DNA of 64,000 bases, from the NCBI RefSeq assembly GCF_006345805.1, contig NC_043007.1, positions 45,570,001 through 45,634,000 of the forward strand, read 5' to 3'. This document shows, one piece after another, positions 5,411-60,437 of this stretch; positions within the stretch are counted from its first letter, which is position 1, and every line of letters begins with the position of its first letter. The DNA is from Octopus sinensis (taxonomy: Eukaryota). The notes beneath the pieces were generated by a model that saw only the letters and a program-made list of their open reading frames with translations, had not been told where the DNA came from and searched no databases. The position numbers and the translations under genes are program-made.

Positions 5411-5590
5411 AATACACACATATATACGACGAGCTTCTTTCAGTTTCCGTCTACCAAATCCACTTACAAGGCTTTGGTCGACCCGAGGCTATTGTAGAAA
5501 ACACTCGCCGAAGGTGTCACGCAGTGGGACTGAACCCGAAACGATATGGTTGGTAAGTAAGCTACTTACCACACAGCCACTCCTACGCCT
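5130..5590 (-). mobile_element. SINE family A, full length
   Basis: Reverse complement of the 53350 copy: tRNA-like head, internal (CA)n, (GTAAAAGA)n tail. Confidence 0.92.
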
Positions 5591-5624
5591 ATATATATAT
5601 ATATACATATATACATATATATAT

Positions 5625-7568
<1,944 letters not shown>

Positions 7569-7580
7569 TATATATATATA

Positions 7581-7611
<31 letters not shown>

Positions 7612-20410: not shown

Positions 20411-20460
<50 letters not shown>

Positions 20461-20646
20461 CTAAGCAATAAGGGTTTAGCAACGAGTTGCCTTACCACAT
20501 ACCGAATTTAGAAATAGCAGTCAAAGGGTTATAGCTATTTCTTCTACTAAAAAGGGAGATCTCAGTAAAAACAGCATTGGAAGGCAGACACAAACAGGTA
20601 AGAGAGAATGAATTGACTGCAATCTATCATACATTTTTTTAGTTAT

Positions 20647-20756
20647 CCACGGACGTACGTTTCGAAATCAAGTTTTAAGGAAAGCATAGAATTAAATATT
20701 AAATATTAAATAATAAATAATTCTATCTTACCGAAACTTCTTTCTCTTCAGCGTAG
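20647..20756 (-). ncRNA. Type I hammerhead ribozyme, inverted copy
   Basis: Reverse complement of the motif at 20928-21039; core intact. Confidence 0.8.
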
Positions 20757-20927
20757 AATACTATAATCATAAATGATTATATATTGAATTTTGAGATACC
20801 AGAAGGCACCAACTCCACTCAGTATCAGAGCGAGCTAGAATCCGCAACTGGTATCACCGAATTCAATTTGAATGGTGCCTTCTGGTATCTCAAAATTCAA
20901 TATATAATCATTTATGATTATAGTATT

Positions 20928-21039
20928 CTACGCTGAAGAGAAAAGAAGTTTCGGTAAGATAGAATTATTTATTATTTAATATTTAATATTTAATTCTTAT
21001 GCTTTCCTTAAAACTTGATTTCGAAACGTACGTCCGTGG
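20928..21039 (+). ncRNA. Type I hammerhead ribozyme, intact core, long stem II
   Basis: CTACG-CTGAAGA-G...C-GAAA-CGTACG-TC-CGTGG; palindromic stem III ACGTACGT; predicted cleavage after GUC at 21034. Confidence 0.82.
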
Positions 21040-21350
21040 ATAACTAAAAAAATGTATGATAGATTGCAGTCAATTCATTCTCTCTTACCTGTTTGTGTCT
21101 GCCTTCCAAATGCTGTTTTTACTGAGATCTCCCTTTTTAGTAGAAGAAATAGCTATAACCCTTTGACTGCTATTTCTAAATTCGGTATGTGGTAAGGCAA
21201 CTCGTTGCTAAACCCTTATTGCTTAGTATTACTTAAATTTTCCTCGAATGAGGCTTTTACATGCCGAAGACTACTTGGTGTAATTGATAATGTTTCCAAA
21301 TTAATTAATTTCACCCTTCATTATTACGGATATATATATATATATATATA

Positions 21351-21556
21351 CTCTTTTACTCTTTTACTTGTTTCAGTTATTTGACTGTGGCCATGCTGGA
21401 TCACCACCTTTAGTCGAGCAAATCGAGCCCAGGACTTATTCTTTGTAAGCTTAGTACTCATTCTATCGGACTATTCTGCCGAGCCTCTAAGTTACGGGGA
21501 CGTAAACACACCAGTATCGGTTGTCAAGCGATGTTGGGAGGACAAACACAGACACA

Positions 21557-21600
<44 letters not shown>

Positions 21601-21768
21601 ACACACACACACACACATATATACATATATACGAAGAACTTTTTCAGTTTCCGTCTACCAAATCCATTCACAAGGCTTTGGTCGGCTCGATGCTATACTA
21701 GAAGACACACGCCCAAGGAACCATGTGGTTGGTAAGCAAGCTACTTACCATACAGCCACTCTTACGCC

Positions 21769-21770
<2 letters not shown>
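21351..21770 (-). mobile_element. SINE family A
   Basis: Matches other copies; small deletion in the head. Confidence 0.92.
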
Positions 21771-22599: not shown

Positions 22600-23455
22600 C
22601 TCACTTGTCAACGGTTGTCAAGCGATGGTGGGAGGAGAAATACAGACACACACATGCTCACAGATACACATTCACATACACACACACACACAACACACAC
22701 ACACATACACACACATATATATGACAGGCTTCTTTCAGTTTCTGTCTACCAAATCCACTCACAAGGCATTGGTCGGCCCGAGGCTTTAGTAGAAGACATT
22801 TGCATAAGGTGCCACACAGTGGTACTTTATTCATGTATCATTCATATTTTACTTGTTTCAGTCATTGGACTGTAGCCATGCCGGGTAAACGCCTTGAAAT
22901 TCTTTACACGAACGAATCGATCCCAGCCTGGCGCTTGTTCTATCGGTACCTTTTTCTCGAACCGCTAATTTACGAGGACGTTTACACACAGGAACACCAT
23001 TTGCCAAGCGGTGGTAGAGTACAAACATTAACACATGGAAGCACGTACGCACACGTAGACACACACACACCACACACACACATACACACACATATATATG
23101 ACAGGCTTCTTTCAGTTTCTGTCTACCAAATCCACTCACAAGGCATTGGTCGGCCCGAGGCTTTAGTAGAGACATTTGCATAAGGTGCCACACAGTGGGA
23201 CTTTATTCATGTATCATTCATATTTTACTTGTTTCAGTCATTGGACTGTAGCCATGCCGGGTAAACGCCTTGAAATTCTTTACACGAACGAATCGATCCC
23301 AGCCTGGCGCTTGTTCTATCGGTACCTTTTTCTCGAACCGCTAATTTACGAGGACGTTTACACACAGGAACACCATTTGCCAAGCGGTGGTAGAGTACAA
23401 ACATTAACACATGGAAGCACGTACGCACACGTAGACACACACACACACACACACA

Positions 23456-23486
<31 letters not shown>

Positions 23487-27590: not shown

Positions 27591-27642
<52 letters not shown>

Positions 27643-27921
27643 GATGACAATACGTACAAAGATCGTACAATAAATAAGAACCGAATTAGTGCTCGAACTA
27701 GATCTAATTCTTAAACTGCAACGTCCTAAACAAGTGAGAAATTGAAGCGCAAATGTTGCTACAAGAAACTCAGAGTTCGAGTAAGTGATAGTAAAGACAC
27801 AGAATGTACTAGTTGTGATATATAGCGTTAAAGCATTTATAACTTTTCTACATAAATTTACAGTCCATGGTAAATCCTTCAATATAGATATACAAATGTT
27901 ACATAAGCGACAATACAAATA

Positions 27922-28147
27922 CAGTAATCCCTCGATTATCGCGGGCGTTACGTTCCAAAACCGCCACCCGCGATTGATGAAAACCCACGAAGTAGAAACA
28001 GTACTGTACACTATATATATTTTTATTATTTTTATAATTTGTATATATTTATTTTATTATAAATGCTAAACAACACCACGGAGAAATCGACGTAAGTTTA
28101 AATAATAAACCGCGATAGGTGAACCGCGATATGTCGATAGATTACTG
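27922..28147. mobile_element. Tc1/pogo-type MITE
   Basis: TA|CAGTAATCCCTCG ... CGATAGATTACTG|TA: TIRs with TA TSD and internal ccgcga repeats. Confidence 0.85.
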
Positions 28148-30944: not shown

Positions 30945-31670
30945 GATCTTTAAGGACCTGTCGGGGGGATGTGTAAAACCAGACGATATTTCATTATCAT
31001 CAGTCGATATTTCATACCATCAGCATCTGGGGTAAGTGATGTTAAACCAGTCGACGGTTCCACTCTTTCACCACTAGGACATTTAAAAGCCTGACATCTA
31101 AGGCGTAGGAGCTGTTAAAATGGCCGGCAATTCGATTTCACTGGCCTTCTATCGAAGGAGTAAACGCTGTTATACGGATCGAAACTTTATATTTTCCACC
31201 CTTAAAAACATTTAACGATCAATCATCGAAGAGGTAGGGGCTGTTAAACCGGTTGGTAGTTAAGCCTGACATCTAAGGCGTAGGAGCTGTTAAAATGGCC
31301 GGCAATTCGATTTCACTGGCCTTCTATCGAAGGAGTAAACGCTGTTATACGGATCGAAACTTTATATTTTCCACCCTTAAAAACATTTAACGATCAATCA
31401 TCGAAGAGGTAGGGGCTGTTAAACCGGTTGGTAGTTAATATCTTCCAGTCCTAAAAAATTAAGTGTCAGGCATATAAGGGACAGTGGTCGTTGAACCGAC
31501 AAATAGTTCACATCTCCCACACCTAAAAGCATTTAAGAGGTATCTAAGGGCCAAGTAAGGAGGGTAGATTAAGCTGGCCGATTGTTCATATGATATAAGT
31601 ATATCTAAGGGCTAACTGTTAAGGTGTTAAACTGCCTGATTGTTTTTATCTTCTATACCTAAAGAGGATC
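30945..31670. repeat. Degenerate ~70-bp tandem array with an exact 175-bp internal duplication
   Basis: Recurring catctaaggNgtag..gctgttaaacc..; 31087-31261 is repeated at 31262-31436. Confidence 0.8.
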
Positions 31671-32379: not shown

Positions 32380-32907
32380 CGCAAGTAGTAGTAGTAGCAG
32401 TGACCATACGGTGGTGTAGTGGCGGTGCCCGTCTGGAAGTGAAGTGCGGTGTTCTGTCATTTGTTTATTTAGCCCCGGGCTCAAGGTTATCAATAATGGT
32501 ATCAAGCCGTAATCGAAGGCGCCCCAGTCGTAAGCATTCCGCCTGTTTTTCAAAAAGGAGTGTTCAAACATTTGAAAGACAAACTTGTAATTTGAATACG
32601 ACTTTGGCTGCTCTTTCTAACAGACAGACCGAAGACGTAGAAAACTCATTGAGCTGGTCGCTGTTGCTGTTGTTTCACTCTGGATCAATCTTATAAAAAG
32701 TGCATCTGTTGCTGTTATTTAACTCTAGGTCAGACCTGATCCAGCAGATCTGTGGTGAAAAATATATCAGCCATGTGTTATAGTTGTCGTCGTTGCTGCT
32801 GTTTAGCCCAAGGACAATCTTGATGGAACTGGTCTACGATAATGGATATACCAGTCATGTGTGTCGGTGACACACATGACTGGTTTTGCTGTTGCTGCTG
32901 TTGTTGC

Positions 32908-33845
32908 TTAGCCCTAGGCGAGACCTGGTCCCAGCAGGTCTATAATATAAGATATACCAGTCATATGCAATCGTTGTTGTTTAGCCCTAGGCGAGACCTG
33001 GTCCCAGCAGGTCTATAATATAAGATATACCAGTCATATGCAGTCGTTGTTGTTTAGCCCTAGGCGAGACCTGGTCCCAGCAGGTCTATAATATAAGATA
33101 TACCAGTCATATGCAATCGTTGTTGTTTAGCCCTAGGCGAGACCTGGTCCCAGCAGGTCTATAATATAAGATATACCAGTCATATGCAATCGTTGTTGTT
33201 TAGCCCTAGGCGAGAGCTGGTCCCAGCAGGTCTATAATATAAGATATACCAGTCATATGCAGTCGTTGTTGTTTAGCCCTAGGCGAGACCTGGTCCCAGC
33301 AGGTCTATAATATAAGATAATATACCAGTCATATGAAATCGTTATTGTTTAGCCCTAGGCGAGACCTGGTCCCAGCAGGTCTATAATATAAGATAATATA
33401 CCAGTCATATGCAATCGTTGTTGTTTAGCCCTTGGCGAGACCTGGTCCCAGCAGGTCTATAATATAAGATATACCAGTCATATGCAATCGTTGTTGTTTA
33501 GCCCTAGGTGAGACCTGGTCCCAGCAGGTCTATAATATGATATACCAGTCATATGCAATCGTTGTTTAGCCCTTGGCGAGACCTGGTCCCAGCAGGCCTA
33601 TAATATAAGATATACCAGTCATATGCAATCGTTGTTTAGCCCTTGGCGAGACCCGGTCCCAGCAGGCCTATAATATAAGATATACCAGTCATATGCAATC
33701 GTTGTTTAACCCTTGGCGAGACCCGGTCCCAGCAGGCCTATAATATAAGATATACCAGTCATATGCAATCGTTGTTTAACCCTTGGCGAGACCCGGTCCC
33801 AGCAGGCCTATAATATAAGATATACCAGTCATATGCAATCGTTGT
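32908..33845 (+). repeat. Minisatellite, about 13 copies of a 68-76-bp unit
   Basis: Unit ttagccctaggcgagacctggtcccagcaggtctataatataagatataccagtcatatgcaatcgttgttgt; internal hairpin AGACCTG/CAGGTCT. Confidence 0.98.
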
Positions 33846-34130
33846 TATCATCATCATCATCGCAATTTCACCCGAGTCAGTCCTGATCATGTAGACTCGT
33901 AATAAAAGTTCGACCAGTAATGCGTTAACTGTTATTTATTATAGTGTTATTGTTGCAGTTGTTGATGTGGTAGTTATTGTTGCTGTGGTTATTGTTGTAG
34001 TATGAGATACTGCTGCGGCTGCCACTACTACTAGTGCGGCTGGTATTCTTATTGTGATAATTGCTGTGGTAAGTTTTGTTGTTATTCCAATAGTATGAAC
34101 AGCAGCAGCAGCAGCAGTAGTAGTAGCAAC

Positions 34131-58879: not shown

Positions 58880-58953
<74 letters not shown>

Positions 58954-58967
58954 TATAGATATATATA

Positions 58968-59751
58968 GGGGTAAAATATGAAAAATCAACGAAAATGCAT
59001 ATTGTAGATAGAAAAAGGCTAACTGTGGAACATGCCCCCACCTTCTGGAGGGTTCAGAATTCCAATTCAAACAAGGAGAAATATTTAAGATCAAATCAAA
59101 TTTCACCTGCGCCTCAGCAAATGTAATCTATGTCATGACATGCATAGGATGTGGTAAACTCTATATTGGACAAACAGGAATTTCGCTCCGTCAAAGAATC
59201 ACCATTCACAAAGAGCAAATCCGTCACCCACAATACAGACAGTTAAAGGTGAGTGAACACATAGAAAGATGTGCCAGGAATCTTAATCCCAATTTCCAAA
59301 TATTTCCCTTTTATCAATGCTCACAGAACACCACAATGCAACAAAGGTTGAATAAAGAGTCATTTTTCATCAACAAATTTCTCCCCCAACTAAATATGAA
59401 CACACAACTCAATACAGAACACCTCTAACTCTTCAATTTAAACCCTATACACTTTCTACAAGACTCACATCTTGAATTCCAGAACTACTTACCTCCCTTA
59501 CCTATAATCCAGAACTAGTTACCTCCCTTACAAATGATCTCTTTTCTCAGGAACTATTAGACCTGACACCGTTTATTAACCGGTGTTCTTCAAACGATGA
59601 ATAGCCCACGCGGAAACCAATTTGTCCGTTTTGGTCTCTTACTTTATTATTATTATTAACTTCTTATAATCATCTCATAATAATGACCTTTATGACTCAA
59701 TCTAAATGTATATATTTGTCACTATCTGTCATAAATAGCCTTTTTCTATCT
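58968..59751 (+). mobile_element. 5'-truncated Penelope-like element
   Basis: GIY-YIG frame, 3' UTR, decayed hammerhead at 59592-59631 (AAACG-ATGAATA..GAAA-C..GTC-CGTTT); 59006-59021 is the exact reverse complement of 59736-59751. Confidence 0.88.
59021..59428 (+). pseudogene. PLE GIY-YIG endonuclease domain (open frame, no RT)
   Basis: NCGTCPHL...FTCASANVIYVMTCIGCGKLYIGQTGISLRQRITIH...NKESFFINKFLPQLN. Confidence 0.92.
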
Positions 59752-60437
59752 TCTATCACGCTACAGCTTGAAAATAAAAACACTGTATTTCAAAGTATAG
59801 TAGTTCATTCTGTCTTCCAGCAGATAAAGCATTTTCCTCATACAAATAAAACGCTTTATCTGCTGGAAGGCTGCTTTTGTAGTAGGTGCCTGATTCAGGC
59901 ATGGGTCATAGTTTTATACGATCAAGACTAACGGGAGTTAGACAAGAACAATTTGTTTGACCTCGAATATTACAGTAATTGTAGTAACGATAATCTCAAA
60001 AACGAAAACCGCAAATAGATAGCTGACGCGATAATCGCCCCCAACACCTGGTACAGACGCGATCCTTGAGTAGGCGGATATGTTCTCATGTAAAGTCGGC
60101 GGCACTACATATTTCTTTTCTTTTCACACACACTTTCTCACACACACAAACACACTAACACAAACGTAAACGCTTACACATATACAAATACACACGCACG
60201 CACGCACATACACACGTACACACAAACACATGTTTTTATATATTATATATGCATAGTGTAGACGTTATAACATGTAGCAGGCTGAATACATTCAATTTAA
60301 TTCAGAATTTGTTATGCAATTGTAATACTGTTGTGCAATACGATTGTATAAATATGCATATGTATAATAATATTTTATATACATATGCATAAATACTTAC
60401 TAGCACTTACTTACACATATGTACGTGAACATATATA

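What the first reader, a model, noticed from the sequence alone, without database searches (positions are those of the whole stretch)
20458..21330. Young 354-bp inverted repeat whose arms each carry an intact hammerhead with an unusually long stem II
Seen: all core nucleotides present (CUGAAGA, G10.1-C11.1, GAAA, GUC), a 5-bp stem I (CUACG/CGUGG), an ~80-nt stem II (GAAA/UUUC, AAGUUU/AAACUU, AGAAUUA/UAAUUCU) and a palindromic stem III (ACGUACGU). The two ribozymes face outward, and the element sits between (TA)n tracts with no ORF. Established: palindromic short stem III favours dimeric cleavage in PLE hammerheads. Inference: a recent non-autonomous PLE/retrozyme insertion. Read-through transcripts would form long dsRNA, a potential ADAR or siRNA substrate competing with ribozyme folding.
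Basis: partly seen in the sequence, partly recalled or inferred. Interest (0 to 1): 0.72.

Follow-up and report, generated by a model that had tools for sequence, protein, structure and literature searches.

The report
Long-armed hammerhead retrozyme, two-armed insertion
This palindrome is one young insertion of a 607-base, protein-free repeat that carries a well-conserved hammerhead-ribozyme motif with an unusually long second arm; it was likely copied into a TA microsatellite by a borrowed Penelope-type retrotransposon enzyme starting from two fixed sites, and this particular copy is predicted to be unable to release a full-length RNA unit.

Summary
Observation confirmed. The 873-bp element is two back-to-back, 5'-truncated pieces of a 607-bp tandem unit; its hammerhead motif has 2,372 exact matches in the genome (control 1). 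It is not a fold-back chimera: the flanks differ, and sister insertions share the outer ends but invert elsewhere. In 21 of 28 complete two-armed insertions one arm ends at each of two fixed sites about 100 bases apart, the Penelope 'tail' signature. Stems I and II show compensatory changes across nine subfamilies (97% paired). Stem II is 52-83 nt across them and grew 60>69>76>83 nt by roughly 7-nt duplications at its tip. A purine-purine internal loop follows its fourth pair in 59 of 59 copies, where canonical hammerheads carry loop 2. The two ribozymes here lie on opposite strands, so this copy cannot excise a unit, and read-through is predicted to bury them in a long hairpin. Cleavage, circular RNA, editing and the partner enzyme were not shown. 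The scan noted similar families before, in this genome and others. Verdict: new variant of a known kind (non-LTR retrozyme / non-autonomous Penelope-like element).

The parts
20441..20460 (.). (TA)n target tract, left side, preceded by (TG)n; overlaps the element end by 2-3 bases
   Evidence: sequence
20458..20870 (-). Left arm: unit positions 91-506 in ribozyme sense; outer end at the 'short' fixed site (506)
   Evidence: 99.0% to reference unit U from L015
20646..20757 (-). Left hammerhead motif (core 20751-20745, 81-nt stem II, predicted cut between 20652 and 20651)
20812..20870 (-). Apparent spacer of the palindrome: unit positions 91-149, present only in the left arm
20871..20872 (.). Inversion junction, 2 extra bases (AA)
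20873..21330 (+). Right arm: unit positions 150-607; outer end at the 'long' fixed site (607)
   Evidence: 99.6%
20927..21040 (+). Right type I hammerhead motif: stem I 6 bp, core 20933-20939, stem II 20940-21022, palindromic stem III 21026-21033, predicted cut after 21034
20944..20945 (+). 5' side (AG) of the conserved purine-purine internal loop after the fourth pair of stem II; partner GA at 21017-21018
   Evidence: position II.6 purine-purine in 59 of 59, paired in 0 of 59
20966..20994 (+). Heptamer repeat (TATTTAA x4.1) at the tip of stem II; source of the subfamily length steps
21230..21330 (+). 101-bp one-sided extension ('tail'): unit 507-607, between the two fixed end sites
21331..21350 (.). 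(TA)n target tract, right side, followed by an unrelated dispersed repeat

Best explanation
The element is one young, two-armed insertion of a 607-bp non-coding hammerhead-bearing repeat (a non-LTR retrozyme), likely copied in trans by a Penelope-like reverse transcriptase/GIY-YIG enzyme. Shown: family, architecture, two fixed ends, TA target, conserved ribozyme fold. Inferred: tandem arrays are transcribed; their ribozymes likely cut as dimers through the 8-nt palindromic stem III and release a unit that probably circularises. The enzyme likely nicks both strands of a (TA)n tract and primes one cDNA from each, one at unit position ~506 and one at ~607. The two cDNAs stop at random points and are joined head to head with short overlaps or a few extra bases, which gives the palindrome and the one-sided 101-bp tail. 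Here both cDNAs stopped before one full lap, so this copy is a dead end. The long stem II is a real helix inherited by the whole family; its tip drifts by heptamer duplication, and its basal purine internal loop probably stands in for loop 2 in docking onto stem I.
For: Family: 1,105 candidates, 40 scored, most 99-100% identical over 458 bp on many chromosomes; 2,372 motif matches vs 1 control; 310 exact matches for the 83-nt subfamily; arrays of about 8-9 full units. Ends: of 67 chains in 65 merged stretches, 60 were complete; 28 of these are two-armed: 21 short+long, 1 short+short, 0 long+long, 6 with one other end; 21 of 22 mixed has P=5.5e-6 under independent 50:50 choice. 24 of 32 complete one-armed chains end at the short site, 6 at the long site, 2 elsewhere. 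Frangieh 2024 (PMC11167929, parts 1-2 of 4 read) shows a PLE protein cutting and extending both strands of AT-rich DNA from two internal start sites, the tail being the stretch between them. Inversion points vary: 20 of 33 overlap by 1-11 nt, 2 are blunt, 11 have extra bases. Fold: 59 copies, 9 subfamilies; stem I 96.9% paired with 4 of 6 positions changed on both sides, basal stem II 97.0% and 4 of 8; slid controls at most 51.7% / 2 and 63.4% / 1. Stem III is a perfect palindrome in 41 of 43 rows, in two versions. Circular monomer z -5.9 in ribozyme sense vs -3.1 antisense, 60 shuffles each. Template: 3 of 66 inner arm ends lie within 10 nt of the cut site, about 2.3 expected; 11 near-private substitutions are fixed across all units in 8 of 22 arrays, 6 of them in both arms.
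Against: No cleavage or circular RNA was shown. Li et al. saw cleavage in only 1 of 9 tested elements, and in the anole PLE ribozyme cleavage was not needed for insertion in vitro, so the template may be uncleaved multimeric RNA. In subfamily D, 3 of 5 aligned rows have A.C in place of the G10.1-C11.1 pair, yet D is young. Four sites in 3 of 22 arrays are mixed among units, against a single circle for those arrays. Loci were chosen for an intact ribozyme, which biases against arms that stop at the cut site. No autonomous element sharing sequence with the unit was found. The tail is 101 bp against the 30-40 bp described. Covariation counts are on related copies with a register set by hand.
Confidence: 0.82

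Rival explanations
1. Same element and enzyme, but the template is an uncleaved multimeric transcript; the ribozyme is weak, protein-dependent or dispensable and no circle is involved.
For: Arms run through the cut site without piling up there; ribozyme mutants still insert in vitro in the anole PLE; young subfamily D tolerates A.C at the base of stem II; mixed sites in 3 of 22 arrays.
Against: Near-private substitutions fixed across all units and both arms suggest a one-unit bottleneck; compensatory changes in stems I and II across nine subfamilies imply selection on the fold; stem I forms in the circular-monomer fold. This rival differs from the best explanation only in the template step.
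Confidence: 0.35
2. A MITE-like DNA transposon or foldback element, the inverted repeats being its terminal repeats.
For: Long near-perfect inverted repeat, TA flanks, no ORF.
Against: Arm lengths and inversion points differ at almost every locus; 32 of 60 complete chains are one-armed and 5'-truncated; the two ends are different sequences; tandem arrays with a conserved RNA fold.
Confidence: 0.03
3. Assembly or library artefact (fold-back chimera).
For: No contig from 8 public runs spans the junction among the pieces listed (short pieces of a high-copy repeat, so uninformative). Three homopolymer gaps suggest base errors.
Against: Flanks on the two sides are unrelated; the palindrome stops exactly at the family's fixed end; the 59-bp inner piece and the 101-bp tail are unit sequence present once; 27 other complete two-armed insertions in the sample have this build.
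Confidence: 0.03
4. Ordinary satellite spread by DNA-level recombination or extrachromosomal DNA circles, with a relic ribozyme.
For: Homogeneous tandem arrays.
Against: Polarised structure (fixed 3' ends, variable 5' ends), TA targeting and strand-biased RNA folding.
Confidence: 0.05

Closest known systems
Metazoan non-LTR retrozymes (Cervera and de la Pena 2020, PMC7229834, parts 2-3 of 6 read; Li et al. 2026, bioRxiv 10.64898/2026.07.22.740005, parts 1-3 of 5 read, supplements closed)
   Same: Non-coding tandem repeats with one type I hammerhead per unit, short palindromic stem III, AT-rich, self-paired predicted circle, dispersed arrays, co-occurring PLEs.
   Different: Unit 607 bp (150-450 in Cervera; within Li's 51-972); stem II 52-83 nt instead of about 4 bp plus loop; two-armed insertions with two fixed ends are not described in the parts read; cleavage and circles not shown here; Li's supplementary tables, not seen, might hold long-stem families.
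Penelope-like element insertions and pLTR hammerheads (Cervera 2014, PMC4209133, parts 1-2 of 4 and passages; Craig 2021, PMC8557442 and its preprint, passages and rows of File S1; Frangieh 2024, PMC11167929, parts 1-2 of 4)
   Same: 5' truncation, partial tandems, inverted truncated copy, one-sided tail between two start sites, (TA)n targets (Neptune, Naiad, Hydra), palindromic stem III; dual ribozymes 100-700 bp apart on opposite strands already reported in Schistosoma.
   Different: No RT or endonuclease ORF; tail about 100 bp, not 30-40; PLE helix II is reported at 6-8 bp, far shorter; no matching autonomous pLTR found. File S2 of Craig (consensus sequences, ribozymes) was not held and may bear on the partner.
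Canonical type I hammerhead (6-bp helix I, 4-bp helix II with loop-loop contact; PMC4209133; PMC3088659 passages)
   Same: Intact core; both helices are interrupted at exactly 6 and 4 pairs from the core.
   Different: Helix II continues beyond a symmetric purine internal loop instead of ending in loop 2; Rfam hammerhead models give no match.

Membership tests
Type I hammerhead ribozyme | Core CUGANGA, GAAA, NUH with G10.1-C11.1 | tested here: met
   Both arms intact; core unchanged in 37 of 43 aligned relatives
Type I hammerhead ribozyme | Three helices, open at stem I, supported by covariation | tested here: met
   stems I and II 97% paired with double-sided changes; stem III pairs invariant, palindromic in 41 of 43
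Type I hammerhead ribozyme | Terminal loop 2 docking on loop 1 | tested here: not met
   No terminal loop after 4 bp; an internal purine loop sits there instead; its docking is inferred only
Type I hammerhead ribozyme | Self-cleavage | not testable with these tools
   Only assembled contigs available
Non-LTR retrozyme | Tandem units each with a type I hammerhead (family level) | tested here: met
Non-LTR retrozyme | At least two consecutive complete ribozymes at this locus (Li's 'active' criterion) | tested here: not met
   One ribozyme per strand; arms cover unit 91-506 and 150-607
Non-LTR retrozyme | No protein, no LTR structure, low GC | tested here: met
   Longest stop-free frame 58 codons; region GC 0.34; primer-binding site not searched for
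Non-LTR retrozyme | Highly self-paired monomer | tested here: met
   Predicted only: z -5.9, 64% paired
Non-LTR retrozyme | Expressed as linear and circular RNA | tested here: inconclusive
   Four runs guessed to be RNA hold pieces of the unit and its tandem joint; no holder is on record as RNA
Penelope-like element (autonomous) | RT plus GIY-YIG ORF | tested here: not met
   PLE fragments near 4 of 117 loci; for the three that lie beside a long-stem copy end (L012, L027, L087) a TA tract separates them
PLE-mobilised insertion | Inverted 5'-truncated copy, one-sided tail, microsatellite target | tested here: met
   tail 101 bp, longer than described
PLE-mobilised insertion | Sequence homology to the pLTR of an autonomous PLE | tested here: inconclusive
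   Only one PLE family tested (30 loci) plus one other ribozyme family; none matched
PLE-mobilised insertion | Target-site duplication | not testable with these tools
   Both flanks are (TA)n

The most novel reading that the evidence does not exclude
This family defines a structural class of type I hammerhead in which internal loops at the canonical 6-bp and 4-bp positions of stems I and II replace the loop 1-loop 2 contact, freeing stem II to carry a growing 50-83 nt arm; and its insertions record two cDNAs primed from opposite target strands at two obligatory start sites on a circular RNA.
Probability: 0.3. Interest if true: 0.65.

Novelty: new variant of a known kind. Interest (0 to 1): 0.42.

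Why it matters
How retrozymes are mobilised and how Penelope elements make their inverted ends are open questions. This young family gives a small, protein-free template with two precise start sites and a short+long pairing rule (21 of 22) that can be put into the published in vitro PLE assay. The ribozyme offers a natural series of stem II lengths with a fixed basal loop, a direct test of whether internal loops can replace loop 2. Standard short-stem descriptors and Rfam miss such motifs, so ribozyme counts in animal genomes may be low. The locus itself is one probably inert copy among hundreds.

Tried and rejected
Rfam: no hammerhead match; the miRNA hits reflect the hairpin and microsatellites. 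One search used a structure string that was out of register for the upper helix and for subfamily E; only its stem I rows are usable, and replace it. One search left out L113 (one base short), L148 and L164 (another family) and L165 (subfamily E again); the tree left out 3 of 72 rows (L012, L083, L140). Short-stem relatives with the same stem III: 2 matches, both deletions in old copies; other neighbouring families with about 30-nt stem II and similar 3' region were seen by eye. Partner search: the Neptune-like PLE family of window 59 kb shares no sequence with the unit; the Hydra lead from earlier notes was followed through L164's family without finding an ORF or similarity to the unit. Sequencing runs: no RNA holder listed; DNA-type contigs do not span the junction among listed pieces; in guessed-RNA contigs one A>G site among 9 differences, at a position where genomic copies also carry G, so no evidence on editing. 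Literature: no paper on long-stem-II type I hammerheads with this build or on cephalopod retrozymes came up (listings only, except as cited); 'long helix II' in PMC13725137 (passages) means 6-8 bp. A pseudoknot was not tested.

Full report
Observation. The inverted repeat is real: 354 of 357 columns match with no substitution. Rfam does not detect it.

What it is. A search of the genome with the right arm gave 1,105 candidates; the 40 scored are mostly 99-100% identical and often spaced 607 bp apart. Mapping a 607-bp unit (U, from L015, ribozyme sense, core at 210, cut after 311) shows the locus to be U91-506 on the minus strand, two extra bases, then U150-607 on the plus strand. The spacer and the 101-bp extension are thus parts of the unit. 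The motif pattern has 2,372 exact matches against 1 for the control, the 83-nt subfamily 310. The unit has no frame over 58 codons and folds as a circle far better than shuffles, more so in ribozyme sense (z -5.9 vs -3.1).

Insertion anatomy. 95 loci were merged into 65 stretches with 67 chains, 60 complete. Of 28 complete two-armed insertions, 21 end once at U506-515 and once at U601-607, one ends twice at the short site, none twice at the long site, and six have one other end (465, 486, 493 opposite a long end; 559, 569, 594 opposite a short end). Under independent choice 21 of 22 mixed has P=5.5e-6. Fixed ends lie in (TA)n. Inner ends are scattered, with short overlaps in 20 of 33 junctions. 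This is the PLE pattern of an inverted truncated copy plus one-sided tail (PMC8557442). Frangieh et al. showed that a PLE protein cuts and extends both strands of AT-rich DNA and starts at two internal RNA sites that bound the tail. One cDNA from each strand, each from its own site, is my inference. The build also argues against a chimera or a DNA transposon.

The ribozyme. With registers set by hand, 59 copies from nine subfamilies give 96.9% pairing in stem I and 97.0% in basal stem II, with double-sided changes at 4 of 6 and 4 of 8 positions; slid controls reach at most 51.7% and 63.4%. Stem III is ACGUACGU in 34 and ACGCGCGU in 7 of 43 rows; both are palindromes, as expected for dimer cleavage (PMC4209133), though CpG decay could link them. 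The long stem II is a family trait: with this stem III only 2 matches have under 50 nt, both deletions. A tree built without the tip nests about 69 nt within about 60, 76 within 69 and 83 within 76 (69 rows, midpoint root, main nodes 100/96-99, 5 changes against a minimum of 3), and the alignment shows 7-nt steps at the tip, about 8-9 nt for the first. After four pairs, stem II has a purine-purine mismatch in 56 of 59 and then 59 of 59 copies; after six pairs, stem I has U.U in 54 of 59. Canonical type I ribozymes have their docking loops at these distances, so internal-loop docking is a reasonable but untested inference.

This copy. One transcript carries only one sense ribozyme, so no unit can be cut out. 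In a read-through of 20458-21330 the predicted probability of stem I is 0 on either strand (90% paired hairpin), and about 0.01 in the right arm alone, while stem II persists there; in the circular monomer stem I forms. The copy is most likely inert as a retrozyme. Whether it is transcribed or edited is unknown: guessed-RNA contigs hold the family, not this junction.

Template. Inner ends show no pile-up at the cut site (3 of 66 vs about 2.3), with a selection bias towards arms that cross it; 8 of 22 arrays carry near-private substitutions fixed in all units, 6 of 11 across both arms, while 3 arrays have mixed sites. This leans towards a circular monomer but does not exclude uncleaved multimers; Li et al. 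found cleavage in 1 of 9 elements, and subfamily D spreads with A.C at the base of stem II in 3 of 5 rows.

Partner. The genome has an abundant C-terminal GIY-YIG PLE family (19,046 candidates, 150 scored) with a Zn-finger-like linker (Neptune-like by the definition) whose copies also end in (TA)n; one fragment lies at window 59012-59428. It shares no sequence with U. A Hydra lead from earlier notes found nothing. The partner is unidentified.

Comparison and verdict. It works like, and at family level meets the sequence criteria of, a non-LTR retrozyme mobilised by a PLE; this locus fails the 'active' criterion. The long arm, its stepwise growth and the fixed basal loop did not appear in my literature searches, whose library lacks most subscription papers. 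The scan's own notes describe similar families repeatedly; none matched this stretch by sequence or place. New variant of a known kind; interest 0.42.

Noticed in passing
window 58950-59760 (+): 5'-truncated PLE fragment: 138-aa GIY-YIG frame (PF01541, E 5.6e-07) after a (TA)n tract; its 3' region has a degenerate hammerhead-like stretch near 59590-59630, seen by eye; a 627-aa open frame of the family lies in L035.
   Followed up: partly
window 20953-20965 with 21077-21089: The 5' strand of upper stem II is complementary at 12 of 13 positions to a stretch about 45 nt past the cut site, a possible alternative pairing; seen by eye, no statistics.
   Followed up: no
L133-L147 (subfamily D): Young subfamily (98-100% identity among hits) in which many copies have A.C instead of G-C at the base of stem II.
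   Followed up: partly
L122:957-3257: A younger 69-nt-subfamily array lies directly against a copy of the older subfamily E.
   Followed up: no
L046:2739-3244, L038:2445-3000, L095:3408-3990, L065:1-355, L074:471-906: Further families share the unit's 3' region at 67-85%; four show hammerhead-like motifs with a stem II of about 30-50 nt, seen by eye.
   Followed up: partly
L148:1501-1593, L164:1501-1593, L168-L182: Unrelated hammerhead family with a 74-nt stem II and the ACGCGCGU palindrome; 465 candidates.
   Followed up: partly
window 32900-33846: 73-bp tandem repeat, 13.1 copies, 96% matches.
   Followed up: no
window 22682-23458 and 31087-31438: Near-perfect tandem duplications of 376 bp and 175 bp.
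   Followed up: no
window 5590-7600: Repeat pattern recurring at about 975-bp spacing, suggesting a local duplication.
   Followed up: no
window 21351-21770 and seven other places: Abundant dispersed SINE-like repeat (label recalled) flanks the insertion; one 25-nt probe matches 8 places in the window, 0 expected.
   Followed up: partly
window 27640-28053: Non-repetitive stretch inside a 211-codon stop-free minus frame; plus frames are broken.
   Followed up: partly
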